DNA from: Verrucomicrobiia bacterium
GTDB taxonomy: Bacteria > Verrucomicrobiota > Verrucomicrobiia > Limisphaerales > Palsa-1400
NCBI GenBank assembly: GCA_036501625.1
Contig: DASXZY010000042.1
Coordinates: 1,929-65,928, forward strand
Direction: 5' to 3'
DNA: 64,000 nt
Shown: piece after piece, positions 9,477 through 31,968 of the stretch
Position numbering within the stretch: the first letter of the stretch is position 1
Layout of the letters: the number at the start of each line of letters is the position of its first letter
Program-made: the position numbers and the translations under genes
The notes under the pieces: generated by a model
What the model saw: only the letters and a program-made list of their open reading frames with translations
Told to the model about the DNA's origin: nothing
Databases searched by the model: none

Positions 9477-11348
9477 ATGAGTTCAATCCGCACGATGGCG
9501 TTTTCCTCGCTTCACAAAGATGAGAGGGTTTTAAAACACAAGCTGGCCCCGGGAACGGTGCGGCGGTCTTTTGGGCTGGTGCGGCCCTACGCGGGCGTTC
9601 TGGCGTTTTTTATGACGCTGGTTGTGCTGGATGCGGCGGCGGGAACTGTCAATCCGCTCATTTTTCGGCAGTTGATCAACAAGGGCATCCTGCGTCATGA
9701 CGCCCACCGGGTCGTGATGCTGGCTTTGACGGCGGCGGCAATTAGTATTATTGACGGCGGCCTGACTTTTTGGCAGCGCCATTTGGCCGCGAGCATCGGA
9801 TTGCAAATGGTGTATGACCTGCGCACGCGCGTCTTCGGCCACATTCAACAAATGTCGCTCGCGTTCTTCAGCCGCGCGCGCACGGGGGCCTTGGTCAGCC
9901 GGCTCAACGGCGATGTCAGCGGCGTTCGCGACGCCTTCACCGACCTGCTCTCCACCGCGATCGGAAATGTGGTGACCGTCTTGATCGTATTGACCGCGAT
10001 GTTCGCTTTGTCCTGGCAGCTTACGGCCGCGGCGTTGCTGGCGGTGCCGGTGTTCCTGGTGTCGGCCCGCAAGGTGGGGCGGAAACTTCGCGAACTGACC
10101 CGCGAAAATTACGATCGCGCCGCCGAAATGAACAACCTCATGGTCGAGCGATTCAATGTCGCGGGCGCGATGGTCTGGAAGGTTTTTGGCCGCCCCGAAG
10201 AAGAGGCCGCCACCTTCGCCCGCCACGCGGACCGGGTTCGTGTCATTGGGATGGCCATGTCCACCTACGCGCGCATTTTGTTCATCGGTTTGGGATTGAT
10301 GGGGTCATTGGCGGCCGCGGCGGTGTTCGGCTGGGGCGGTGTGCAGGCGGCGCACGGAGCGCTGGACGTCGGCACTGTCGTCGCGCTGGTATCCTATCTC
10401 ATCCGGCTTTATGGGCCGCTGACCGGGTTATCGAGCTTGCAAGTCGATGTCATGACGACGCTCGTTTCGTTCGAGCGCGTGTTCGAGGTGCTGGACTTGA
10501 AGCCGAACATCACTGACGCGCCCAATGCCCGCCCGATTCCCAAAGAGCCGGTGCGGATTGAATTCGATCACGTCCGATTCCGCTACCCGGCGGCGGCGGA
10601 AATTTCCCTGGCCTCGCTCGAATCCGTCGCTGCGCTTGACAAGCATCCCGAAAAGGACGTGCTGCGCGAAATCAGTTTCACGGCCGAGCCCGGCCAGGTC
10701 GTGGCCTTGGTCGGGCCATCCGGCGCGGGGAAGACGACCCTCGTGCAATTGGCCGCGCGCCTTTACGATGTCTCCGAAGGCGCGGTGCGCGTCAACGGCG
10801 TGGACCTGCGCGAAGCCACCGGCGCCTCGATTCGCGACACGGTGGGGATGGTCATGCAGGACTCCCACATGTTCCACGACACCATCCGCGCGAATCTGCA
10901 ATATGCCAAACCCGGCGCGAGCGATCAGGAATTAAACGCGGCCCTGGATGCGGCGCAACTTTTGCCGCTGGTGCAATCGCTGCCCAAGGGATTGGACACG
11001 CTCCTGGGAGACCGCGGCCACCGGCTTTCGGGCGGCGAGCGCCAGCGCCTGGCCATCGCGCGGCTGTTGTTGAAGGCGCCGCGGGTGGTCATTTTGGACG
11101 AGGCCACCGCGCATCTGGATACCGCCGCGGAACGGGCCATCCAACAGGCGTTCGCGACCGCGCTGGAAGGCCGCACTTCGCTTGTGATCGCGCACCGGCT
11201 CTCGACCGTCCAAAACGCGGATCAAATTCTGGTTCTTCAGCAGGGCCGGATTGTGGAACGCGGCCGGCACGACGAATTGCTGCGCGCCAACCAACTCTAC
11301 GCGCAGTTGTATCAGAAACAATTCAAAGAAGTTCCTGCGAAGGGCTAG
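9477..11348 (+). CDS. ABC exporter, fused permease/ATPase (MsbA-like type I exporter)
   Basis: 623 aa with six N-terminal TM helices. Walker [10 protein letters not shown], signature [16 protein letters not shown], Walker [13 protein letters not shown] and H-loop IAHRLSTV. Confidence 0.9.
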
Positions 11349-11354
11349 GCCGGG

Positions 11355-13178
11355 CTAAATCTTCCAATACGGCTTGGCGCTGGCGTCGATTTGCTCGAAC
11401 AACTGGCGCACGCAGGCCGGAATCTCCTCCATCGCCTCCGCGATGCGCGCGCCCAAACGGCTGTCATATTCGCCCAGGCGAAATTGCGAGAACAAGTCGT
11501 TCAGGGCTTTGCGCTGGTCCGGCAGCGTGCTGGCAGGGCTGAGGCGCGCCTCCAATTCCCTGGGCGCCAGCGTGATGGCCGGAAAGCCGCGCGCGATCGC
11601 CCGCGCGTCAAGCAAATATCCTTCCAAGTCGGGAAAATCGAGCGTGACGACCTGCTCTGGCGGCAATTGCAATTGGTCCACAATCGCTTTTCGCGTGCGG
11701 CTGGCCATTTCGCTGCCGTTGCCGAATACGGCGAAGACCAGCGTATGGACGAAGTTGCTCAACGCGATGCGCGTGTTGGCGAAGTAATGCAGCGTGCAGG
11801 CGCCCTCGGCGTCGAGGAATTGAACGTTGATGTGAAAATTAAATCTCCGCGCCCACGCCTCGAAGATCGGCACGTGATCGGCCTGCTCGACAAACACAAT
11901 GGCCTCCGCCTCGAAGCTGAACGAAGGTTTGACACCCAATTGCTCAATGACTTCCGGGGCGTGCTCAGGCGTCACGGCCACCACAGCCGTCGTTTTATCC
12001 GCGTCGCGTTCCACGATGAACAGGGAGGAAAGCGGGCACGAAGCGGCGATGGCGGTGGAATGGGTCGCCACGAAAATGCGTTTGCTCCTGGCTTCTTCGC
12101 GCAGGAAATGGAACAGGCCCAATTGCGCTTTCGGATGCAGATAGGTTTCCGGCTCCTCGACGCAGACCCACGAACCCGGTTTGGCCAGCACGATTTTCGC
12201 CACAATGGCCACCAGCGAGCGCGTGCCAAAACTCATTTGATCAATCGAATAAACCAGATCTTCATCCGCGTCGTCGATCATGCCCAGAGTGGCCTCGTTG
12301 TGAATGGTGGGCGTGTAAAGCTTGCCGAGGCTGGGCACCAGCTTGGAAACTTCCGCCTCGATCTTGCGAAACTGCTTGGGCTTGTTGTTGTAGAGCCAGT
12401 GCATCACGTCGGGCAGGTTGGAGACATCGGCCGTTAGCGTATGGCCGCCGAGAATCGGCGCGCTGGTGGGCATCTTGCGCAGAGGATCGGCCCATTCCAG
12501 GTTGGCGAATTGTTGATAAACGGCCTCGGCCAGCTCGTGCGAAATCGGGAACGCGGCGGCGCCCTCCGGCCGGCCCAGGCGCAATCGGTAAGGCTCCAGC
12601 GTTTCCAGGCGCGGCTCCAGCGGGACTGGCTCGGCCGGAAGTTCGCCGGCGCAACGTTTGCTCAGCGCCTCCATCTGGCCGGACACCGCCTCCAGCATGC
12701 CCGGCGCGCCTTTGACGGAAAAAATCTCAAACAGCCGCTCCCCGGAAATGTTGGGCGTGGAAAGGGCCTCGGTGAAACTGTCGCGCGTGAGGGTCATTTT
12801 CAAAACGAGCACGGAAAGAAACGCGGAGTTGATCACTTCGGCGGCGGCCAATTGCGGATTGCCCGCGTAGAGGCGGTGGATGAAATCAATCCGCCTTTTC
12901 GGAGCGGGCACGAACTCAAAGAGGAACTCGATGGTTTCGTTCTCCTGTTTGCGGTGGATAACTTCGATAAGGCTGCGGCCGCGGAACGCCACCGCCTGCT
13001 CAAAGCTGATGGCCGCCTCGGAAAGGAACTTAAACGCGTCAAGGCAATTGGACTTGCCGGCATTATTGCGGCCCATCAGAAGCGCCAGGTTATTAAGGTC
13101 ATTCAACTCCACGCGCCTGATGCTTTTATAATTGCAGGCAATCACCCGCCTCAGACTAAGATCGACAAGTTCCATCAC
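11355..13178 (-). CDS. OLD/PARIS-like ABC-type ATPase with C-terminal Toprim/DUF4435-like region (candidate single-gene defence nuclease)
   Basis: 607 aa. Walker A GRNNAGKSN near the N-terminus, a long insertion, then Walker B/D-loop WVCVEEPETYLHP and H-loop FVATHS (AAA_15/AAA_21 architecture). The C-terminal ~170 aa begins AIVFVEQADHVPIFEAW, resembling the Toprim/DUF4435 first strand with its Glu. Confidence 0.65.
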   Translation of the reverse strand: MMELVDLSLRRVIACNYKSIRRVELNDLNNLALLMGRNNAGKSNCLDAFKFLSEAAISFEQAVAFRGRSLIEVIHRKQENETIEFLFEFVPAPKRRIDFIHRLYAGNPQLAAAEVINSAFLSVLVLKMTLTRDSFTEALSTPNISGERLFEIFSVKGAPGMLEAVSGQMEALSKRCAGELPAEPVPLEPRLETLEPYRLRLGRPEGAAAFPISHELAEAVYQQFANLEWADPLRKMPTSAPILGGHTLTADVSNLPDVMHWLYNNKPKQFRKIEAEVSKLVPSLGKLYTPTIHNEATLGMIDDADEDLVYSIDQMSFGTRSLVAIVAKIVLAKPGSWVCVEEPETYLHPKAQLGLFHFLREEARSKRIFVATHSTAIAASCPLSSLFIVERDADKTTAVVAVTPEHAPEVIEQLGVKPSFSFEAEAIVFVEQADHVPIFEAWARRFNFHINVQFLDAEGACTLHYFANTRIALSNFVHTLVFAVFGNGSEMASRTRKAIVDQLQLPPEQVVTLDFPDLEGYLLDARAIARGFPAITLAPRELEARLSPASTLPDQRKALNDLFSQFRLGEYDSRLGARIAEAMEEIPACVRQLFEQIDASAKPYWKI

Positions 13179-13235
13179 GCTGGGTTTTAGATAGCCTCTT
13201 TTGTGGAAGTCTCAAGGGTATTCGTGGAACGCGGC

Positions 13236-15416
13236 CTAGTCGCTCGCTGCCTCGGCGGTTTGCCGCGAACGCGCTTCCATCGCGCGGAAACGGGTTTCCA
13301 GTTTGGGGTAATGTTTGATCAGCGCCTGAAAATGCGTGTCCCGCAGCGAAAGCAGGAGCGTCGGCGCCAAGGTGCGCACGGTGGCCGTCCGGGGCATCCG
13401 ATGCAGGAGCGCGATCTCGCCGAAGTAATCCCCGTCGTCCAGGACGGCGATTCTCTTGGGTTCCTCCGCGCCGTTTTGCTTGAGAATCTCGACTTTGCCG
13501 CGGGCGATCAAATAGAACTTATCCCCCATTTCGCCTTCGGTCACGACATCCTGCGCGGCCGGGTAGGATTCGGCCACAAAGTATTGCACGGCCTCTGCCA
13601 GCGCCTCCGGCTCCAGTTCGCTCATCACGGGGTAATCCTGCAAATGCGCCGGATCGATCACGCCATCGTCCCCCTGCTCGTTGATCGTGAACCCGCTTTG
13701 CCGCCGCCAAAGCCTGGCATAAGCGCCGCGGGCCGCCATCAAATTCGCGTGGCTGCCCGCTTCAGCCACCCGTCCGCCTTGCATGAAATAAATGCAATCC
13801 GCGTTCTGCACCGAGGCCAGCCGGTGGGTCACGGAGATCACCGTCCGCCCGGCCGACAAATCGCGCAACGTCGCGTTGATGGCCGCTTCCGTTTCCGGGT
13901 CCAGGGCGGAAGTCGCTTCGTCAAGTAGAAGGATGCGCGGATGCCGCAGCAGGGCGCGCGCGATGGCAATCCGCTGGCGCTGGCCTCCGGAAAGGCGGCC
14001 CCCGCACTCGCCGGCCAGGGTGTCGTATCCTTTGGGCAGCGAGGCGATCCATTCGTGAATTTCCGCCTGGCGGGCCGCGCCTTCCACCTCGTCATCGCTG
14101 GCGGAAGGGAAGCCCAGCCGGATATTCTCCCGCAGGCTCAAGTGGAAAAGGTCGCTGTCCTGGAAGACGACTCCCATCTGCCGCCGCAACGATTCCACCA
14201 TCGTTTGCCGGATGTCCACGCCGTCAAACATAATTGAGCCGGCATTGGGATCGTAGAAACGAACAATCAAATTGAACAGCGTGCTTTTGCCGCTGCCGCT
14301 GCTGCCGACAAAGGCCACAAAGGTGCCGCATCGGATCGTCAAGTCGATTCCGTGCAGGTTTTGCAAGCCGCCGCCGTAACTGAAGGAGACATTGTGAAAG
14401 CGGATGTTCTCGCGCATCGGCGGATGATCGGCCGCGCCCGGCTGATCGCTCACGGCGGCCTCCTCCTTCAGAAGTTCCTGCACCCGGCCCAGGCCGAGGA
14501 CGGATTCCATCAGCACCGGCGTCACCTGGGTCAGAGTCTGGATGGAACGGACGACGTAAAGAAAAATGCCCTGGAACGCTACGATTGTGCCCAGCGTGCG
14601 GTGCCCGCGCGCCACCATCAGCAACCCCAATCCCATCACCAGCACTTCGGCGATCAGAATGATAAGGTTGGGCGAGCGTTCCAGCACGTAGGCGATGAAC
14701 TTGGCTTTGGCCGTCTCCCGCGTCAGCGACTCTGTCAAATCAACAAATCCGTTGATGAAATGCGGCCCCAGCCCGAAGGCCTTGACCACCGGCTGGGCCA
14801 GTACCGTTTGCTGGGCGATGTGTTCCAGTTCCGATTCCTTGTCCTCCACGGGCACGCGGGCGTCCGCCGCCACCTTGACCAGCGGCCGCGGCAATTCAAC
14901 GCACAGCACCAGCGCGCAAACCGTCAGCGCCGCCAGCCGCCATTCCAGAAAAAACAAAATGGTCACGCTGCACACAATTCCGACCGCCCCCAGCAGAAAA
15001 CCGGCCGCCCCGGATGTCACCGCCGATTCCAGCAGCACGAGGTCGCCGGAGAGCCGGGCGATGAGGTCGCGGCTGCGCTGCTGCATGAAGAAGGACATGG
15101 ACATCTGCTGCAAATGGCGGAAGACCGCCTGCCGGGCATCGCGCTTGATGCGCGTGCTCAAGACCGCGAAGCCGTAACCCCGCAGCAAATCCGCGCCGGA
15201 CGCCAGCAGGACGGCCAGGATGAGCGCCCCGGCGATCTTGCTGAAAAAAATGAGGTCCACCCCGGCGGAAATTTTGTCAATAAAATACTTAAGCCCCAGC
15301 GGCCACATGATGCTGAAGGCGACATCGACCATCAGCAGCGCTCCCACCCCGGTGGCGATGCTTCGGTAGGGGGACAGATACCGCGCCAGCACGCGAAGAT
15401 ATTGAAAAAAGGTCAT
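13236..15416 (-). CDS. ABC exporter (permease/ATPase) fused to a C-terminal cyclic-nucleotide-binding domain
   Basis: 726 aa with an N-terminal TM domain. GSSGSGKST, LSGGQRQRIAIARALL, ILLLDEATSALD. The C-terminal ~120 aa carry the cNMP-binding signature (GEMGDKFYLIARGKVEIL..LDDGDYFGEIALLHRMPRTATV). Confidence 0.9.
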   Translation of the reverse strand: MTFFQYLRVLARYLSPYRSIATGVGALLMVDVAFSIMWPLGLKYFIDKISAGVDLIFFSKIAGALILAVLLASGADLLRGYGFAVLSTRIKRDARQAVFRHLQQMSMSFFMQQRSRDLIARLSGDLVLLESAVTSGAAGFLLGAVGIVCSVTILFFLEWRLAALTVCALVLCVELPRPLVKVAADARVPVEDKESELEHIAQQTVLAQPVVKAFGLGPHFINGFVDLTESLTRETAKAKFIAYVLERSPNLIILIAEVLVMGLGLLMVARGHRTLGTIVAFQGIFLYVVRSIQTLTQVTPVLMESVLGLGRVQELLKEEAAVSDQPGAADHPPMRENIRFHNVSFSYGGGLQNLHGIDLTIRCGTFVAFVGSSGSGKSTLFNLIVRFYDPNAGSIMFDGVDIRQTMVESLRRQMGVVFQDSDLFHLSLRENIRLGFPSASDDEVEGAARQAEIHEWIASLPKGYDTLAGECGGRLSGGQRQRIAIARALLRHPRILLLDEATSALDPETEAAINATLRDLSAGRTVISVTHRLASVQNADCIYFMQGGRVAEAGSHANLMAARGAYARLWRRQSGFTINEQGDDGVIDPAHLQDYPVMSELEPEALAEAVQYFVAESYPAAQDVVTEGEMGDKFYLIARGKVEILKQNGAEEPKRIAVLDDGDYFGEIALLHRMPRTATVRTLAPTLLLSLRDTHFQALIKHYPKLETRFRAMEARSRQTAEAASD

Positions 15417-25527: not shown

Positions 25528-25569
25528 GCTTCCCTCTTAAAAATGGTGCGCGAGAGAGGACTTGAACCT
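25528..25569. repeat. tRNA-proximal att repeat
   Basis: Partner of 16218-16259; overlaps the 3' 26 nt of tRNA-Leu. Confidence 0.85.
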
Positions 25570-25627
25570 CCACCCCTTTCGGGACCAGATCCTAAGTCTG
25601 GCGTGTCTGCCATTCCACCACTCGCGC
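25544..25627 (-). tRNA. tRNA-Leu (anticodon UAG), CCA encoded
   Basis: Folded by hand. Acceptor stem GCGCGAG/CUCGCGC and U8. D-stem GUG/CAC. Anticodon stem CCAGA/UCUGG with loop CUUAGGA. Long variable arm CCC-GAAA-GGG. T-arm GGAGG-UUCAAGU-CCUCU, discriminator A, CCA. 84 nt. Confidence 0.9.
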
Positions 25628-26402: not shown

Positions 26403-28073
26403 ATGACATCTGATGCCGATTCCGGTTCTGGCCCGGTTCCTCCGGCGCCCATTCCTCCCCCGATTGAATGCTCGCGGCCGGCTGGCTTGCCCGCGGACCC
26501 TTGGGAGCCTTTCCGAAGATGGGCGCGCGTTCTGGCCGCCCGCAATCCGTTTTATATCGTCAGCGCCATGCTGCTGCTGTGGAGCATGCGGCGGCTTTCG
26601 CTTGACTCCAGGATATTCCGCGATGAGCTGCCGCAATTGCTCTTCAACTTCTCCTCCTTCCAGATTTATGAACTGCTGCTGGCGGGGACGGCCATTGGGC
26701 TGGCCCGGCGGCGCGCGTGGTATGATTCCGGGCTGCTGGTGGGATTGGAAAATATGTTTGTCTGCGTGCCCTTCCTCCTCGTCAGCCAGGCCCTCCTGCT
26801 CGAAAACTGGATTGCCGCCGCCTTCTGCCTGGCGGGCGGCGGGCTGGCGGTCGCGCGCATCGCGGCGCTCAAACGCCGCTTAAAGGAGCTTGCGATGCCC
26901 GGCCCGCTGCTCTGGATGGGCGCCGTCCTCCTCTGCTTCAACCTGGCATGGCCGCTGCTGATTCGCCGCCTCCACCAAAATGTCTCCATGCCCGGCTGGG
27001 ATGATCGGGGACTGATGCTGACCTCGCTGGAGTGGAACTGGCTGCTCCCGGCGGCGGCCGCGCTGGGATTATTCTTGACAACGCGGCCCGGCGCGGCTGC
27101 CATGCCGGCGGGCGAGGAACGGCCGTTCTACAATTGGCGCTCCTTTCCCCTGCTGGCGCTGCTGATGTGGGCGGCGGGAACCGGCGTTCATCTTTACTGT
27201 ATCAGTTACGTGTATGGATTGCCCTGGAACATCGCCTTCCTGGCGCCGGGCGCGTGGGTGGCTTCGTGGGTTCTCTGGCGTCAGGCGGGGCGGCTTGTGC
27301 CGGAAGTTGTTCGCGCGACTGTTCAACGCGGCCTGTTGTTTCCGCCAGCGCTCGTTTTGCTGTGCTGCCTGGGCGCCACGCAGCCGTCAGTGTGTTTGAC
27401 ACTGGCCGTTTTGAACGCAGTTGCCTTTGGGGCCGCGGCGGTGGTTCGCCGCGAACGGCTGGCGGTTCACTTGGGAGCGTTTTCCGTGCTGGCGGCGCTG
27501 GGAGCCATCCGGCCCGCGGAGACGGCCCAGATTTTTGGCGGCGGGAGCTTGTTCTACATCGTGGCATGCGCGCTTGTTTCCGCGCGGCCCAGATTGGGCA
27601 TCGCGGGCGGATTTGCTCTTGGAATCGGGCTGGCGTGCGCGTTAGGCGGAACGGCCATGATGCTGAACTTCGCGTTGCAGGCGGCTTTGGTGTTCATCCT
27701 TCTGCACAGCCTGCGCTGGGGCGGCGGCCGGCATTCCGACGCGGCCAAGGCCCGCGCGATTTGCGCCGCCTGCTGGCTCATTCACACCGCGGCCTGGGTG
27801 ATTGCCATGCCGGCCGGCGCGATCGCGGTGACGATGGCCTGCGGTTCGTCGATTCTTATTGTTTACACCTGCGCGCGGTTCGTTTTGGGAACATGGGGGC
27901 CGCGCATCATCGCCTGGAGCGGCGCGGCGGTGATGTGGTGGGGGCCGCTTTATCTGGCCGGGCGGCATTTGCTGCGCGCGCCCGAAGGCGTGCTGGAACT
28001 GCTGGCCAGTTTCGCGCTCTTCGGCCTCGGCACGCGGGCCGCCCTGTGCAAGGCGCGCCGCCGGGCGGCTTGA
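26403..28073 (+). CDS. Polytopic integral membrane protein, function unknown
   Basis: 556 aa with a Pro-rich N-terminus followed by about 12-14 hydrophobic helices. Overlapping alternative-frame ORFs (27032-28162 +, 27907-28770 -) are Arg/Gly/Pro-rich shadows. Confidence 0.7.
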   Translation: MTSDADSGSGPVPPAPIPPPIECSRPAGLPADPWEPFRRWARVLAARNPFYIVSAMLLLWSMRRLSLDSRIFRDELPQLLFNFSSFQIYELLLAGTAIGLARRRAWYDSGLLVGLENMFVCVPFLLVSQALLLENWIAAAFCLAGGGLAVARIAALKRRLKELAMPGPLLWMGAVLLCFNLAWPLLIRRLHQNVSMPGWDDRGLMLTSLEWNWLLPAAAALGLFLTTRPGAAAMPAGEERPFYNWRSFPLLALLMWAAGTGVHLYCISYVYGLPWNIAFLAPGAWVASWVLWRQAGRLVPEVVRATVQRGLLFPPALVLLCCLGATQPSVCLTLAVLNAVAFGAAAVVRRERLAVHLGAFSVLAALGAIRPAETAQIFGGGSLFYIVACALVSARPRLGIAGGFALGIGLACALGGTAMMLNFALQAALVFILLHSLRWGGGRHSDAAKARAICAACWLIHTAAWVIAMPAGAIAVTMACGSSILIVYTCARFVLGTWGPRIIAWSGAAVMWWGPLYLAGRHLLRAPEGVLELLASFALFGLGTRAALCKARRRAA

Positions 28074-28167
28074 CCGGGCGGCGAATCGGGCTACTATGCT
28101 GGTGTTTGATTGCGGGGCGCGCGGCGGCCGCCGTCCCGCTCTCATTCATCTTGACGCTGTGAGTTTC

Positions 28168-29235
28168 ATGCCCGTTTTGAAAACGCCCCGCGGCAAGCCG
28201 GCCTTCTGGCTGCTTGCCGTTGTATTGTCGGCGGCGCTTGCGGCGGCCGCGCAAACTTCCAGCCCGGCCTTCAAGCGCCCGTCCGTGCCGCTGCCCGCGC
28301 CAGTCAATCCCAGCGAGATGCCGGCCGCATTCACCAAGGAGTCTCCGGCCACGCTGGACGATTTGCGCGAGATGCAAGACCGCGTCGCGGAGCTGGTCGC
28401 GCGGGTTTCTCCGGCAGTCGTGGGCGTGGAAGTCGGCAATGCCAGCGGCAGCGGCGTGGTCATTTCTGAAGACGGCCTGGTCTTGACAGCCGGCCACGTG
28501 GCCGATTGGGCGGGCCGCCGCGTGAAGTTCACCTTTCCCAATGGCAAGACCGCGCGCGGCAAAACGCTGGGCGTGGACGAAGACGCGGATACCGGCTTGA
28601 TGCGCATCACCGACCCCGGCGCCTGGCCGCACGCGCCGGTGGGCGATATGAAGCGCGCCCGGCTGGGCGATTGGACGCTGGCGCTGGGCAACCCCGGCGG
28701 ATTCGATTCCAAAAGGTCGCTGGTGGCGCGCCTGGGAAGGATCGTCCGCTTGATGCCGGGCGTGGTGCAAACCGATTGCACGATTTCCCCCGGCGATTCC
28801 GGCGGCCCGCTATTTGACATGTACGGGCGGGTCATCGCCATTCACACGGCGATCGCGACCTCAATGGAGGAGAATTTTCACGTGCCCATCACCGAGTTCT
28901 TTGCGACCTGGAGCGAATTGTCGGCCCCGCTCATCACGCCCAAGCCCCCGCCCGCTCATGAGCCGGCCTACAGCGGGTTGAGCCTGGCGGATGATCCCGA
29001 GGAATGCCGCCTGAGCGCCATCGAGAAAAACAGCCCGGCCGCCAAAGCGGGCCTCAAGCCCGGCGACGAAATCCTGAAAGTGGACGGCCGGCGCATCGAG
29101 GCCGCCGCGATGTTCCGGCGCTGGCTGGCCGAGAGCGCGCCCGGTGAAACGCTGCACTTGGAAATTCAGCGCGGCTCGCAGGACTTTACCGTCTCGATCA
29201 AACTTCAACCCTTGCCGCGCACGCGCAACAAATGA
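28168..29235 (+). CDS. Secreted trypsin-like serine protease with C-terminal PDZ (HtrA/DegP-like)
   Basis: The ATG at 28168 gives MPVLKTPRGKPAFWLLAVVLSAALAAAAQ (signal). Catalytic motifs LVLTAGHV (His), DEDADTGLMRI (Asp) and ISPGDSGGPLFD (Ser). PDZ motif AAKAGLKPGDEILKVDGRRI. Confidence 0.85.
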   Translation: MPVLKTPRGKPAFWLLAVVLSAALAAAAQTSSPAFKRPSVPLPAPVNPSEMPAAFTKESPATLDDLREMQDRVAELVARVSPAVVGVEVGNASGSGVVISEDGLVLTAGHVADWAGRRVKFTFPNGKTARGKTLGVDEDADTGLMRITDPGAWPHAPVGDMKRARLGDWTLALGNPGGFDSKRSLVARLGRIVRLMPGVVQTDCTISPGDSGGPLFDMYGRVIAIHTAIATSMEENFHVPITEFFATWSELSAPLITPKPPPAHEPAYSGLSLADDPEECRLSAIEKNSPAAKAGLKPGDEILKVDGRRIEAAAMFRRWLAESAPGETLHLEIQRGSQDFTVSIKLQPLPRTRNK

Positions 29236-30251
29236 AATCGGCCTTCACATTGTGGCTCGTTCTGCTGGGCCAGGCCGCCCTCGCGCAAACGCTTGAGGAT
29301 TTCCCTCAATTGCCGCGGTCCCGTTATCACAGCGGCCAGGATGTGCTCAACGCCTTCAAGCCCGTCTCCGCCCGGTTGCGCGATTCCGTGGTCGAGTTGA
29401 ACGTGGGCGAAGACCCAGTGGCGCTGGGCGCCGTCGTAGATGCCAGCGGACTCGTCCTGACCAAAGCCAGCGAACTGAAATCCGGCAAACTGACTTGCTG
29501 GCTGGCCTCGGGCAAGGAAGTGGACGCCAAATTGCTGGCCGCCGATGAGGACAACGATGTGGCGCTGGTCCGCGTCCAAGCCGCGGGCCTCAAACCCATA
29601 GAGTGGGCCGCCAAACAATTGGTGGAAGGGCAATGGGCCGTCACGCCCGGCCTGTCCGACACGCCGCAGGCGGTCGGGATCATCAGCGCGCTGACCCACA
29701 CCATCCGGGCCCAGCGAGCGTTCATTGGCATCCGCTGGGACACGTTCTCGGCGCGCCCCGTTGTCTCGCAAGTCGAGCCCGGATTTGGCGCGGAAAAGGC
29801 CGGCGTCAAGCCAGGCGACCTCATCGTGGCTGTCGATCATACAAACGTCACCAATGCGTCCGAGGTGGCCGATATTTTGGGGGAATTCCACGACGGGCAA
29901 ACGGTGCAAATCCGTTTCAAACGCAAGGAAGAAGTATTTGACGCAAGGATCGAATTGATGCTGGCCAAGCCGGGGACGCTCTTCGCCTCCGACGGTCCCG
30001 AAGACAGCCTTCGCGGCGACGTCAGCGCGCGCAACGGGCAGTTTGAGGAAGCCATCGAACACGACACGGTGATCGAGCCGTGGCAATGCGGCGGGCCGCT
30101 GGTCAACCTGGACGGGCAAGTCATCGGGCTGAACATCGCCCGGGCCAGCCGCTTCGCCACCTACGCCTTGCCCGCTCCGCTGGCGCGAAAAATCCTGGCC
30201 AAGCTCAAATCCCAAACCCAACAACCCTCTCCGCCAACCGATGCCCGATGA
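29232..30251 (+). CDS. Secreted trypsin-fold pseudo-protease with PDZ inserted inside the protease domain
   Basis: ATGA overlap with the upstream protease. Signal peptide MKSAFTLWLVLLGQAALAQ. The His motif reads LVLTKASEL (Ser at 29469-29471 where His is expected). The Asp motif DEDNDVALVRV is kept. The Ser motif reads EPWQCGGPL (Cys codon TGC at 30087-30089). A PDZ-like segment (GAEKAGVKPGDLIVAVD..) sits between the GIISA and IEHDTVIEP segments. Confidence 0.8.
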   Translation: MKSAFTLWLVLLGQAALAQTLEDFPQLPRSRYHSGQDVLNAFKPVSARLRDSVVELNVGEDPVALGAVVDASGLVLTKASELKSGKLTCWLASGKEVDAKLLAADEDNDVALVRVQAAGLKPIEWAAKQLVEGQWAVTPGLSDTPQAVGIISALTHTIRAQRAFIGIRWDTFSARPVVSQVEPGFGAEKAGVKPGDLIVAVDHTNVTNASEVADILGEFHDGQTVQIRFKRKEEVFDARIELMLAKPGTLFASDGPEDSLRGDVSARNGQFEEAIEHDTVIEPWQCGGPLVNLDGQVIGLNIARASRFATYALPAPLARKILAKLKSQTQQPSPPTDAR

Positions 30252-31968
30252 CGCGGCCAGCCTGAAGGCAGCCCATGACCGGCTCAAGCTGCTTTACCAA
30301 GTCAGCAACGTCATCCATTCGACACTTGACCCGCAGCAAGCCCTGCAATTGATTCTGCAAGAAGCGGTGCGTGTAATGCGCGCCTCCAGCGGCTCCCTGG
30401 CTCTCATCAACCCCAACAACGGCCTCTTGGAAATCCACGCCTCGGCCGGTTTGCCGCCCAACGCGCCGGAGTTGAAATTGCGCGTCGGCCAGGGCGTGAC
30501 GGGCTGGGTCGCCCGGATGGGCAAACCCGCGCGCGTCGGCGACGTCCGGCAAGATGCCCGCTACGTCATGCTGAATCGGGAAGTGCTTTCCGAACTGGCC
30601 GTGCCGCTCGAAGTGATGGGAGAAATCAAAGGCGTGATCAACGTGGATTCCCGCGATGCCGAGGCGTTCAGCCAGGAAGACCAGGAATTGCTGGAAGAAC
30701 TGGCGGCGCAAGCAGCCAAGGTCATTCAAAACACATGGCTCTTTGAGCAATCGCGCCTCAAGGCCCGGCTGCTGGAGACGCTGGTCAGCGTCAGCCGTTC
30801 CATCAATTCCGCTCTGCACGTCGATGAAGCGCTCCAGCTCATCACGCGCGAAGCGTGCGCGCTGATGGGAGCGCGCATGTGCTCGCTCTTGATGCTTGAC
30901 GCCACCGGCGAATGGCTTGACCTTCGGGCCTCCTACGGCGCGGGGCCGTCTTATCTTGACAAGCCGCCCTTGAGAGTGGACGAGAGTTTCATGGGCGTGG
31001 TGGTGCGCCGCCGGAAACCGATGCAACTGGAGAACGTGCAAGCGTCCGCGCTTTACCAAAACGTGGAGATGGCCCAGCGCGAAGGATTGGTTTCGCTGTT
31101 GAGCGCGCCGTTAATTTTTGGCGGGCAAACGATTGGCACCCTCAACGTTTATGCGGGCGAGCCGCGCAGCTTTTCCAACGAGGAATTTCACATCATCACG
31201 GCCCTGACGGAACTGTCCGCCATCGCCATTGAAAAGGCGCGCCTCTACGAGCGGGTGGTTGACGTCGAGGAGCAATTGCGTCAAAACGAAAAACTTTCCG
31301 CCCTCGGCCTGCTGGCGGCGGAGGTCGCGCATGAAATCCGCAATCCGCTCACGGTCATGAAGATGCTCTACCATTCGTTGAGCCTGGAGTTCTCGCCGGG
31401 CGATCCGCGGGTGCGGGACGACATCATCCTGCGCGAGAAAATGGACCACCTGAACAAAATCGTGGAGCAAATCCTGGACTTCGCGCGCAGTTCCGAGCCG
31501 AAGATGCGCAAGACCAATCTCAATCTATTAGTGAACGACCTGGCCCTGCTCATCCGGCACAAATTGCACAACCAGCAGATTGAGTTTGTCCGCCGGCTGG
31601 CGCCGGCCTTGCCGGAGGTGATGGCGGATGGCACGCAATTGTCTCAGGCCTTTTTAAACTTGACCCTCAACGCGGTCGAGGCCATGCCCCAAGGCGGCAA
31701 GTTCACGATTTCGACCCGCGCCGTCACGCTGCCGCGGCGGGGAGGGCAGCCGTCGCACGTACTGATAGAATTCCGCGACACCGGCCACGGCATGACCAAA
31801 GAGCAGCGCGGACGATGCTTCTCATCGTTATTGAGTTCGACGAAGGAGTCAGGAACCGGCCTGGGCTTGGCCATCGTTGGCCGGGTGGTGGAAACTCACC
31901 GCGGGAAACTGCGCATCTGGTCGCGTCCCGGGCTGGGAACGGCCTTCACGATTACCCTGCCGGTATAA
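30241..31968 (+). CDS. Cytoplasmic GAF-GAF sensor histidine kinase
   Basis: 575 aa with no TM segment. Two GAF-like regions, HisKA H-box AAEVAHEIRNPL, and HATPase motifs (NLTLNAVEAM, RDTGHGM, GTGLGLAIV). Overlaps the upstream gene by 11 nt. Confidence 0.85.
   Translation: MPDDAASLKAAHDRLKLLYQVSNVIHSTLDPQQALQLILQEAVRVMRASSGSLALINPNNGLLEIHASAGLPPNAPELKLRVGQGVTGWVARMGKPARVGDVRQDARYVMLNREVLSELAVPLEVMGEIKGVINVDSRDAEAFSQEDQELLEELAAQAAKVIQNTWLFEQSRLKARLLETLVSVSRSINSALHVDEALQLITREACALMGARMCSLLMLDATGEWLDLRASYGAGPSYLDKPPLRVDESFMGVVVRRRKPMQLENVQASALYQNVEMAQREGLVSLLSAPLIFGGQTIGTLNVYAGEPRSFSNEEFHIITALTELSAIAIEKARLYERVVDVEEQLRQNEKLSALGLLAAEVAHEIRNPLTVMKMLYHSLSLEFSPGDPRVRDDIILREKMDHLNKIVEQILDFARSSEPKMRKTNLNLLVNDLALLIRHKLHNQQIEFVRRLAPALPEVMADGTQLSQAFLNLTLNAVEAMPQGGKFTISTRAVTLPRRGGQPSHVLIEFRDTGHGMTKEQRGRCFSSLLSSTKESGTGLGLAIVGRVVETHRGKLRIWSRPGLGTAFTITLPV

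What the first reader, a model, noticed from the sequence alone, without database searches (positions are those of the whole stretch)
11355..13178. Stand-alone OLD/PARIS-like ABC ATPase with a Toprim/DUF4435-like tail: candidate single-gene anti-phage nuclease
The 607-aa protein has the split ABC-ATPase layout of the AAA_15/AAA_21 (OLD, Gabija GajA, PARIS AriA) group. Walker A GRNNAGKSN lies at the N-terminus, followed by a ~290-aa insertion, then Walker B WVCVEEPETYLHP and H-loop FVATHS. A C-terminal ~170 aa follows, opening with AIVFVEQADHVPIF, which is the position and shape of the Toprim/DUF4435 first strand with its catalytic Glu. A clear DxD motif could not be located by eye. No partner gene (a UvrD-like GajB or a separate AriB) is adjacent, so this would be either a class-1 OLD or a fused AriA-AriB type. 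It sits 57 bp downstream of, and co-oriented with, the cNMP-regulated ABC exporter, which is an odd neighbourhood for a defence gene.
Basis: partly seen in the sequence, partly recalled or inferred. Interest (0 to 1): 0.6.

Follow-up and report, generated by a model that had tools for sequence, protein, structure and literature searches.

The report
OLD-family ATPase with degenerate nuclease site
The gene encodes a real OLD-family ATPase with a Toprim tail, but its lineage has lost the metal-binding DxD motif and is inherited vertically among housekeeping genes, so it is probably not a classic anti-phage nuclease.

Summary
The ORF is real. It lies on the minus strand at 11355-13175 and encodes 606 aa. 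The ATPase half matches Pfam AAA_15/AAA_21, and every ABC motif is invariant in relatives.

The 207-aa tail has no Pfam hit. Its AlphaFold model best matches the Toprim plus helical C-terminal regions of class 2 OLD nucleases (6nk8, 6njw). A profile search links it to about 240 clusters whose distant members hit Pfam OLD-like_TOPRIM.

The active site is degenerate:
- Relatives outside the clade carry FVEGxxD and FDGDTE. The window has FVEQADH and FGNGSE.
- Both DxD aspartates are glycines, and the BpOLD E404 equivalent is His.
- 125 of 149 tail alignments from clade members read FGNG, and only one Verrucomicrobiota member keeps a DxD.

The tail is still under purifying selection (dN/dS 0.03-0.24). 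The clade is confined to Verrucomicrobiota MAGs. It has no close relatives on phages, plasmids or viral contigs, and within subclades it keeps synteny with housekeeping genes. The ABC-exporter neighbourhood is not conserved.

Verdict: a vertically inherited OLD-family ATPase lacking the canonical two-metal site. It most likely binds or senses nucleic acid rather than cutting it. It is a new variant of a known kind, of moderate interest.

The parts
11355..13175 (-). Coding sequence of the 606-aa OLD-family protein. The ATG is at 13175 and the stop codon at 11355-11357. An in-frame GTG at 13178 is one codon upstream.
   Evidence: ORF list and translation. Homologues start at MEL.... dN/dS is 0.03-0.29.
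13047..13073 (-). Walker A / P-loop GRNNAGKSN (residues 35-43).
   Evidence: G35, N37-N43 and K41 are invariant in 23 homologues. N-terminal matches to AAA_15, AAA_29 and SMC_N.
12276..13010 (-). Insertion of about 245 aa inside the ABC ATPase (residues about 56-300), at the position of the OLD dimerisation domain. The model shows a beta-rich part (82-165) and helices (210-279).
   Evidence: The two Pfam stretches flank it. Full-length AF2 secondary structure. Domain position as in TsOLD (PMC7049728). The fold of the insert was not compared separately.
12219..12239 (-). ABC signature-like motif QMSFGTR (residues 313-319).
   Evidence: Q313, M314, S315, G317, T318 and R319 are invariant.
12132..12170 (-). 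Walker B and D-loop WVCVEEPETYLHP (residues 336-348).
   Evidence: E340, E341, P342, E343, H347 and P348 are invariant. Aligns with IIEEPEMYLHP of T. scotoductus OLD 6p74.
12054..12071 (-). H-loop FVATHS (residues 369-374 are VATHST; H372 is the catalytic His position).
   Evidence: H372 is invariant. It lies at the end of the AAA_21/AAA_15 matches.
11640..11909 (-). Toprim-fold domain (residues about 423-512): four parallel strands alternating with helices.
   Evidence: AF2 tail model with pLDDT 81 and pTM 0.80. Foldseek top 5 are all class 2 OLD C-terminal regions. Transitive link to Pfam PF20469.
11874..11888 (-). First Toprim motif, E430-Q-A-D-H434. The catalytic Glu is kept. The Gly that follows it in relatives is Gln. 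The position of BpOLD E404 is His.
   Evidence: E430 is invariant. Relatives outside the clade have E-G-x-x-D. Alignment of the family profile to 6nk8 FVEGDAE.
11715..11723 (-). G485-N486-G487, occupying the position of the Toprim DxD motif (BpOLD D455-L-D457) just after strand beta-3.
   Evidence: Relatives have FDGDTE and the window has FGNGSE. FGNG is in 125 of 149 tail alignments from clade members. 6nk8 TDLD aligns to the family DGD. Strand 479-484 in the model.
11358..11639 (-). C-terminal helical bundle (residues about 513-606). It carries D516-L-E518 at the position of BpOLD T506-x-E508, and R554-K555 in the conserved NxK motif, a tentative K562 equivalent.
   Evidence: Helices in the AF2 model. 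The whole tail aligns over about 210 columns with 6nk8/6njw, which include the helical domain. The position-119 Glu is near-invariant in the family and kept in most clade members. The K assignment is inferred from sequence only.

Best explanation
The gene encodes a member of the OLD family. It has an N-terminal ABC ATPase split by an inserted domain, followed by a C-terminal OLD-type Toprim domain and a helical bundle.

The protein belongs to a clade found only in Verrucomicrobiota MAGs that descends from ordinary stand-alone OLD-like proteins with an intact DxD. This clade has lost the canonical metal-A site: both DxD aspartates are glycines, the Gly after the catalytic Glu is lost, and the E404-equivalent acid is His. 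The rest of the tail and all ATPase motifs remain under purifying selection.

The most likely mode of action is that ATP binding and hydrolysis drive head engagement and conformational change, as in other OLD and ABC proteins. The remodelled Toprim-helical module then binds nucleic acid without canonical two-metal cleavage, acting as a sensor, clamp or scaffold. Because the gene is inherited vertically in stable chromosomal positions next to housekeeping genes, a cellular role in genome or RNA maintenance or signalling is more likely than an autonomous abortive-infection nuclease.

Shown: the architecture, the fold, the motif states, the selection, the phyletic restriction and the synteny. Inferred: ATPase competence, nucleic-acid binding, loss of processive nuclease activity and a non-defence role.
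For: Architecture:
- Pfam AAA_21 and AAA_15.
- The full-length AF2 model best matches TsOLD 6p74 (E 1.9e-14), then GajA and the Retron-Eco8 OLD.
- The tail model best matches the class 2 OLD C-terminal regions 6nk8 and 6njw (E 7.5e-5 to 4.4e-4, about 210 columns).

Homology of the tail:
- A profile search gives 239 clusters at E<=1e-3.
- Seven of the ten distant members scanned reach the Pfam cut-off for OLD-like_TOPRIM, and two more fall just below it.

Motif states:
- All 26 relatives from outside the clade in alignment A3 have E31, and at least 90% of its rows have G32, D35 and D86-G-D88. The window has E, Q, H and G-N-G.
- The family profile aligns FVEGetD and fDGDt with FVEGDAE and TDLD of 6nk8, which are E400/E404 and D455/D457 (residue roles from PMC6755086).
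- In the clade census, 125 of 149 read FGNG. Among Verrucomicrobiota members only L034 keeps a DxD (FDSD).

Consequence of losing these residues:
- BpOLD and TsOLD metal-A triple mutants lose processive cleavage.
- Each single P2 Old metal-A mutant (E398A, D453A, D455A) abolished host killing.

Selection:
- dN/dS is 0.03-0.24 in the tail and 0.06-0.29 in the ATPase.
- All ATPase motifs are invariant.

Inheritance:
- About 30 GTDB species carry it. All are Verrucomicrobiota MAGs except three contigs that are probably mis-binned.
- Subclades keep PNP_UDP_1, PFK, YebC, or LysR plus a hybrid kinase next to the gene.
- Its identity is similar to that of housekeeping neighbours.
- L034 (DxD kept) and L036 (DxD lost) share upstream genes.
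- An NJ tree nests the clade inside a DxD-intact family.
- No close relatives occur in phage, plasmid or IMG/VR collections.
- GC content equals that of the flanks.

Precedent: the Sulfolobales Cran1 clade is a lineage-restricted, vertically inherited OLD clade with a non-defence role (PMC12796447).
Against: - No biochemistry was done. E430, E518 and a Lys/Arg in the helical domain are retained, and H434, D433 and D516 could form a remodelled single-metal site.
- Metal-A triple mutants of BpOLD and TsOLD still nick plasmids, so residual nickase or RNase activity is not excluded.
- Class 1 OLD genes are typically single genes outside defence islands (PMC10568477). A housekeeping neighbourhood is therefore weak evidence against defence.
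- Whether the gene is 'core' was not tested by presence/absence across complete genomes. Only loci that contain the gene were examined.
- In one genome (L001/L002/L019) the gene sits beside an AAA_15 plus DUF4276 pair, which resembles a defence module.
- The K562 equivalent and the nucleic-acid-binding role are inferred, not shown.
Confidence: 0.6

Rival explanations
1. It is a functional class-1-type OLD anti-phage or abortive-infection nuclease. It would cleave DNA or tRNA through a remodelled active site built from E430, D433/H434, D516/E518 and K555.
For: - OLD architecture and fold.
- Stand-alone gene, as for class 1 OLDs (PMC10568477).
- E430 is invariant, and E518 and K555 are mostly conserved.
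- Metal-A triple mutants of BpOLD and TsOLD retain nicking.
- Strong purifying selection on the tail shows that it does something.
- One relative neighbours an AAA_15 plus DUF4276 pair.
Against: - The DxD is replaced by G-x-G in nearly all clade members.
- Single DxD substitutions abolish P2 Old function in vivo.
- The DxD and the E-G-x-x-D motif are kept in about 70 other family representatives, so their loss here is specific to this clade.
- Distribution is restricted to one lineage, with conserved housekeeping synteny and housekeeping-like evolutionary rates.
- There are no close relatives on phages, plasmids or viral contigs.
Confidence: 0.22
2. It is an accessory ATPase of the neighbouring ABC exporters, for example a regulatory or energising subunit of the cNMP-regulated exporter.
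For: - It lies 57 bp downstream of, and co-oriented with, the cNMP-domain ABC exporter. No terminator-like site was found in the gap.
- Small ABC_tran genes lie upstream in L008 and L009.
Against: - None of 37 related loci shares the window's exporters next to the gene.
- Relatives sit next to PNP, PFK, YebC, LysR and other unrelated genes.
- The ATPase is of the OLD/SMC-like AAA_15/AAA_21 type, not a transporter NBD: ABC_tran scores E 0.042, below the cut-off.
- The tail is an OLD Toprim.
Confidence: 0.03
3. It is a fused PARIS-type AriA-AriB protein, or the sensor half of a split system whose effector nuclease is encoded elsewhere. The dead Toprim would serve as a docking or regulatory module.
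For: - PADLOC AriA profiles hit the ATPase at 1e-23.
- The DxD-intact sister P0122 hits the fused AriAB profile over residues 342-550.
- Stand-alone tail proteins of about 200 aa exist in the wider family.
- Catalytically dead domains often keep binding roles (a general principle cited in PMC12065111).
Against: - No DUF4435/AriB match in the tail.
- AriA hits cover only the ATPase, and the AriAB profile is not among the window protein's best 25 PADLOC hits.
- No conserved neighbouring effector gene occurs in any of about 40 loci.
Confidence: 0.1

Closest known systems
Class 1 OLD nucleases (P2 Old; Thermus scotoductus OLD, PDB 6p74)
   Same: Single stand-alone gene. N-terminal ABC ATPase with an inserted domain, then a C-terminal Toprim. 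This is the best full-length structural match (E 1.9e-14) and the best PDB sequence match (2.2e-5). It has the same EEPExYLHP Walker B/D-loop.
   Different: TsOLD and P2 Old keep E, DxD and the metal-B ligands, and need them for function. The window protein has G-N-G in place of DxD and His in place of the second acid. [quoted passage not shown]
Class 2 OLD / Gabija GajA C-terminal region (B. pseudomallei 6nk8, X. campestris 6njw; B. cereus GajA)
   Same: The tail (Toprim plus helical bundle) aligns over its whole length with these C-terminal regions. The family profile aligns its E-G-x-x-D and DGD motifs with E400/E404 and D455/D457 of 6nk8.
   Different: There is no UvrD-like GajB gene next to it here or in relatives. 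Metal-A aspartates are absent. GajA profiles stop matching at about residue 450 in the window protein, whereas they run through the Toprim of the DxD-intact sister P0122.
Cran1 / clade U11 OLD-family ATPases of Sulfolobales (PMC12796447)
   Same: A lineage-restricted OLD clade with no sign of a defence context, as in Sulfolobales, where the gene tree recapitulates the species tree. It gives a precedent for a cellular, non-defence role of an OLD protein.
   Different: Cran1 is archaeal and a potent nickase in vitro. The window clade is bacterial and lacks the DxD. No sequence with the clade's motifs is in that paper's dataset.
Uncharacterised stand-alone OLD clade (probably 'U4' of PMC12796447, Dataset EV1)
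   Same: U4 sequences carry ELGIRPSD..IIFVEG.. and EEPE.H.HP motifs like the DxD-intact relatives of the window protein. The window clade nests inside this family in an NJ tree.
   Different: Assignment to U4 rests on motif resemblance only, not on a joint phylogeny. U4 members shown keep the catalytic motifs, and the window clade does not.
PARIS AriA/AriB and HEC-01A ABC ATPases
   Same: The ATPase half scores best against the PADLOC HEC-01A (1.7e-33) and AriA (1.3e-23) profiles.
   Different: Those profiles cover only the ATPase. There is no DUF4435 or AriB-like gene or domain, and no second gene of a HEC-01 pair, at the locus.

Membership tests
OLD family (ABC ATPase + Toprim) | N-terminal ABC ATPase with Walker A, signature, Walker B, D-loop His and H-loop | tested here: met
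   Pfam AAA_21 at 74.7 bits and AAA_15 at 73.9 bits, both above cut-off. All motif residues are invariant in 23 homologues.
OLD family (ABC ATPase + Toprim) | C-terminal Toprim fold (four-stranded parallel sheet between helices) | tested here: met
   AF2 tail model with pLDDT 81 and b-a-b-a-b-a-b order. The five best PDB matches are OLD C-terminal regions. Transitive profile link to PF20469. There is no direct Pfam hit for the window tail itself.
OLD family (ABC ATPase + Toprim) | Invariant Toprim glutamate (BpOLD E400) | tested here: met
   E430 is invariant in the clade and in the wider family. It aligns to the Glu of FVEG in 6nk8.
OLD family (ABC ATPase + Toprim) | Conserved Toprim glycine after beta-2 | tested here: met
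   G458 (tail G59) is invariant in alignment A3 and near-invariant in the clade.
OLD family (ABC ATPase + Toprim) | DxD metal-binding motif after beta-3 (BpOLD D455/D457; TsOLD D431/D433; P2 D453/D455) | tested here: not met
   The window has G485-N-G487. 125 of 149 tail alignments from clade members read FGNG. Relatives read FDGDT. Mapping to 6nk8 TDLD.
OLD family (ABC ATPase + Toprim) | Metal-B ligands (BpOLD E404, T506, E508) and catalytic Lys/Arg | tested here: inconclusive
   The E404 position is H434 (H, Y, Q, D or A in the clade). The T506-x-E508 position is D516-L-E518, and the E is kept in most members. A K/R in the NxK motif is kept, but its equivalence to K562 was not checked on a superposition.
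OLD family (ABC ATPase + Toprim) | Metal-dependent nuclease activity | not testable with these tools
   Needs purified protein. Mutational data for other OLDs predict loss of processive cleavage.
Class 1 OLD | Single gene without a conserved partner | tested here: met
   No conserved neighbour across about 40 loci.
Class 2 OLD / Gabija GajA | UvrD/PcrA-like helicase gene (GajB) immediately downstream | tested here: not met
   The downstream gene is a convergent ABC exporter. No helicase lies next to the gene in relatives.
Class 3 OLD (retron effector) | Adjacent reverse transcriptase and retron ncRNA | tested here: not met
   Neighbours are ABC exporters. The only Rfam hit in the window is a tRNA. 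The NCBIfam retron Eco8 effector model scores 42 bits against a cut-off of 250.
PARIS (AriA/AriB or fused AriAB) | DUF4435-type Toprim effector, adjacent or fused | tested here: not met
   No DUF4435 hit in the tail even at E<=10. AriA profiles match only the ATPase.
Anti-phage defence gene (general) | Patchy, horizontally spread distribution, or linkage to defence islands or mobile elements | tested here: not met
   Restricted to Verrucomicrobiota MAGs. Housekeeping synteny is conserved within subclades. No close relatives on phages, plasmids or IMG/VR. GC content equals the flanks. Presence/absence across complete genomes was not tested.
Cran1-like non-defence OLD ATPases (U11) | Lineage-restricted vertical inheritance | tested here: met
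   Synteny blocks are kept within subclades, and L034 and L036 share upstream genes. This is an analogy only: the clade is bacterial, and no sequence with its motifs is in that paper's dataset.

The most novel reading that the evidence does not exclude
A whole verrucomicrobial lineage has converted an OLD-type ATPase-nuclease, normally a suicide or defence enzyme, into a nuclease-dead, ATP-driven nucleic-acid-binding factor with a conserved cellular role. The catalytic site decayed stepwise and at least twice independently, while the rest of the Toprim module stayed under strong constraint. This would be a bacterial counterpart of archaeal Cran1, but without the cutting activity.
Probability: 0.4. 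Interest if true: 0.6.

Novelty: new variant of a known kind. Interest (0 to 1): 0.45.

Why it matters
OLD-family proteins are studied almost only as anti-phage nucleases (P2 Old, Gabija, Retron-Eco8, PARIS), and the Toprim acidic residues are treated as universally conserved. A clade that keeps the ATPase and the Toprim scaffold under purifying selection while discarding the DxD offers three things.

- It is a natural separation-of-function variant. It can show what the ATPase-Toprim scaffold does apart from cutting, such as sensing, DNA binding or oligomer switching.
- Together with Cran1, it supports the idea that OLD proteins have been recruited to cellular roles.
- It is a caution for automated defence-system annotation. 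PADLOC-type ATPase hits (HEC-01A, AriA, GajA, Old) would flag this gene as defence even though its effector site is degenerate.

Tried and rejected
- Direct sequence searches of the tail found nothing useful. Pfam on the tail alone and on 23 clade tails at E<=10 gave only one marginal OLD-like_TOPRIM hit at 0.15. A clade-tail profile against PDB sequences gave no hit. The link needed a profile search of 1.84 billion representatives plus structure prediction.
- A promoter/terminator scan gave nothing above shuffled expectation. Co-transcription with the exporter is therefore undecided.
- The ABC-exporter association was rejected after comparing flanks of 37 related loci.
- I considered whether the missing DxD was an alignment artefact and rejected it. 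The G-N-G follows the modelled beta-3 strand (479-484), where the DxD lies. The flanking F and the trailing S/T-E align with FDGDTE of relatives. The same register aligns to TDLD of 6nk8.
- I considered decay or pseudogenisation of the tail and rejected it on dN/dS.
- I looked for the clade in the Cran1 paper's dataset by motif. RNNAGKSN had no match, and the single FGNGS match lies in the N-terminal part of an unrelated archaeal sequence.
- A literature search for 'inactive Toprim' returned no paper containing the phrase.
Full report
**Observation.** The ORF is real and lies on the minus strand at 11355..13178 (GTG, 607 codons).
- Homologues begin at the next codon, the ATG at 13175 (MELVDL...), so the product is 606 aa.
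- The upstream co-oriented gene (13236..15416) is an ABC exporter with a C-terminal cNMP-binding domain, and the gap is 57 bp.
- The downstream gene (9477..11348) is a convergent ABC exporter.
- GC content of the gene (0.60-0.62) equals that of its flanks.

**ATPase half.**
- Pfam AAA_21 (1.8e-20) and AAA_15 (2.5e-20) match above their cut-offs, each in two stretches that flank a long insertion.
- PADLOC's best hits (HEC-01A, AriA, NsnB, mad3, GajA, Old) all cover only the ATPase.
- NCBIfam gives only sub-threshold hits.
- By sequence, the best solved relatives are T. scotoductus OLD (6p74, 2.2e-5) and GajA.
- In 23 homologues the P-loop, QMSxGTR, EEPE, H347-P348 and H372 are invariant, so the ATPase looks competent. 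This is an inference from the motifs.

**Tail.** Residues 400-606 have no Pfam hit, and 23 clade tails give nothing better than one OLD-like_TOPRIM hit at E 0.15.
- An AlphaFold2 model of the tail (pLDDT 81, pTM 0.80) shows b-a-b-a-b-a-b followed by a helical bundle.
- Its five best PDB matches are all C-terminal regions (Toprim plus helical domain) of class 2 OLD nucleases from B. pseudomallei and X. campestris. E-values run from 7.5e-5 to 4.4e-4 and TM is about 0.5 over about 210 columns. The next hits are above 0.02.
- The full-length model (pLDDT 80) best matches TsOLD, GajA and the Retron-Eco8 OLD.
- A profile of the tail against 1.84 billion representatives found 239 clusters at E<=1e-3.
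- Of ten distant members scanned, seven reach Pfam's gathering score for PF20469 OLD-like_TOPRIM in the aligned region, and two more fall just below it.
- The tail is therefore an OLD-type Toprim by both fold and transitive homology.

**The active site is degenerate.** Relatives from outside the clade read FVEGxxD ... G ... (V/I)FDGDTE ... (S/E)xE. The window reads FVEQADH ... G ... VFGNGSE ... DLE. The family profile aligns its FVEGetD and fDGDt with FVEGDAE and TDLD of 6nk8. According to Schiltz et al. 2019, those are E400/E404 and D455/D457 (metal A: E400, D455, D457; metal B: E404, T506, E508).

| BpOLD residue | Window residue | State |
|---|---|---|
| E400 | E430 | kept |
| E404 | H434 | changed to His |
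| D455 | G485 | changed to Gly |
| D457 | G487 | changed to Gly |
| E508 | E518 | kept |

- The G-N-G follows the modelled beta-3 strand (479-484), where the DxD belongs.
- Of 149 tail alignments from clade members, 125 read FGNG and most of the rest FGxx. Among Verrucomicrobiota members only L034 keeps a DxD (FDSD).
- About 70 other family representatives keep both E-G-x-x-D and DxD.
- Metal-A triple mutants of BpOLD and TsOLD lose processive cleavage but still nick. Each single metal-A substitution in P2 Old (E398A, D453A, D455A) abolished its in vivo activity.

**The tail is not decaying.** Pairwise dN/dS among orthologues is 0.03-0.24 in the tail and 0.06-0.29 in the ATPase. The replacement motif FGNG is itself conserved. 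So is the YxANxR/K motif, which is shared with DxD-intact relatives.

**Distribution and inheritance.**
- All 120 listed homologues (56-84% identity, about 606 aa) come from metagenomes or MAGs. Every organism name given is Verrucomicrobiota, Verrucomicrobiae or Limisphaerales.
- A scan of 185,579 GTDB species representatives found about 30 full-length copies. All are in Verrucomicrobiota MAGs except three contigs binned elsewhere, which carry verrucomicrobial synteny and are probably mis-binned.
- The window's own neighbourhood is not conserved. None of 37 related loci shares the ABC exporters.
- Within subclades the gene keeps fixed neighbours (gene identities):
  - PNP_UDP_1 immediately downstream, with PFK-GH26 upstream, in ten or more loci.
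  - YebC/TACO1 downstream in four loci.
  - A response regulator with HDOD and HD domains upstream in three loci.
  - LysR plus a hybrid kinase upstream in L034 and L036.
- Its identity between genomes resembles that of those neighbours. For L001 versus L021, the values are PFK 92%, ThiF 92%, CinA 86%, GH26 75% and the OLD-like gene 86%.
- L034 (DxD kept) and L036 (DxD lost) share upstream genes, so the loss happened in place.
- An NJ tree places the verrucomicrobial clade inside the DxD-intact family, with P0122 as sister. It suggests at least two losses of the DxD, after an earlier loss of G32 and D35 that L034 also shows. This tree is rough and has no support values.
- Phage, plasmid and IMG/VR collections hold no relative above about 28% identity over more than a short fragment. 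The one higher value is 51% over about 50 residues around the P-loop.
- DxD-intact relatives L034 and L038 are also stand-alone genes among regulatory and housekeeping genes.

**Interpretation.** The protein is an OLD-family member by architecture and fold, but it fails one defining feature, the DxD. It works most plausibly as an ATP-driven nucleic-acid-binding or sensing protein without canonical two-metal cleavage. Vertical inheritance points to a cellular role, as recently shown for the archaeal OLD protein Cran1, which however is an active nickase. A remodelled one-metal nickase or RNase cannot be excluded, because E430, E518 and a Lys are retained and metal-A mutants of other OLDs still nick. 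The transporter-partner idea is refuted by the lack of synteny. The wider DxD-intact family resembles the uncharacterised clade U4 of the Cran1 study by motif. No sequence with the window clade's motifs is in that dataset, and a full-text search found no paper using the phrase 'inactive Toprim'.

**Verdict.** This is a new variant of a known kind, of moderate interest.

Noticed in passing
P0165, P0177, P0179, P0185, P0191, P0193 and others (not in the window): About 25 representative clusters of 840-950-aa proteins carry the same OLD-type Toprim plus helical tail, with the DxD intact, at their C-terminus. In the five scanned with Pfam the N-terminal ~700 aa had no hit above cut-off, and the two scanned with PADLOC (P0165, P0177) had none. 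This architecture has not been explored.
   Followed up: partly
P0168, P0176, P0196, P0240 (not in the window): Proteins of about 200 aa consist of the tail domain only, with OLD-like_TOPRIM hits down to 1e-10. They could be split, AriB-like stand-alone forms or gene fragments. Their genomic context could not be looked up.
   Followed up: no
L001 6161-7926 (same in L002 and L019): An AAA_15/AAA_21 ATPase (364 aa) plus DUF4276 (224 aa, a Toprim-superfamily domain according to PMC12065111) pair lies between GH26 and the OLD-like gene in one genome. In L020 the same GH26-to-OLD gap is under 100 bp, and the L021 and L023 gaps are similarly short, so the pair looks like a defence-type insertion next to the homologue.
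   Followed up: partly
L017 (labelled Baltobacteraceae), L035 and L039 (labelled Saccharimonadales): MAGs assigned to other phyla carry copies 59-79% identical to the window protein, with the verrucomicrobial PNP_UDP_1 or PFK neighbours. These contigs are probably mis-binned.
   Followed up: partly
L034 5559-7385, L036, L037: The catalytic site seems to have decayed stepwise. L034 keeps a DxD (FDSD) but has already lost the Gly and the E404-equivalent acid. Two separate subclades (FGNG type and LNSPS/LGSGT type) lack the DxD, which suggests independent losses. This rests on a rough NJ tree only.
   Followed up: partly
window 13236-15416 (-) and 9477-11348 (+): Two ABC exporter genes (transmembrane domain plus NBD) flank the gene. 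The upstream one has a C-terminal cyclic-nucleotide-binding domain fused to the NBD. It was not examined further.
   Followed up: no
window 11391-12437 (+) and 12441-13190 (+): Long antisense ORFs (348 and 249 aa) lie inside the gene and recur opposite the homologues in other loci. They are most simply shadow ORFs of a GC-rich gene.
   Followed up: partly
window 25547-25627 (-): A tRNA gene is the only Rfam family reaching its gathering score in the 64-kb window.
   Followed up: no
L013 7688-10001 versus window 27934-30293: In L013, genes just downstream of the OLD-like homologue match window genes that lie about 15 kb away from the window copy. Their identity is about 62%, against 77% for the OLD-like protein. 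This indicates local rearrangement, and that the OLD-like gene is more conserved than these neighbours.
   Followed up: no
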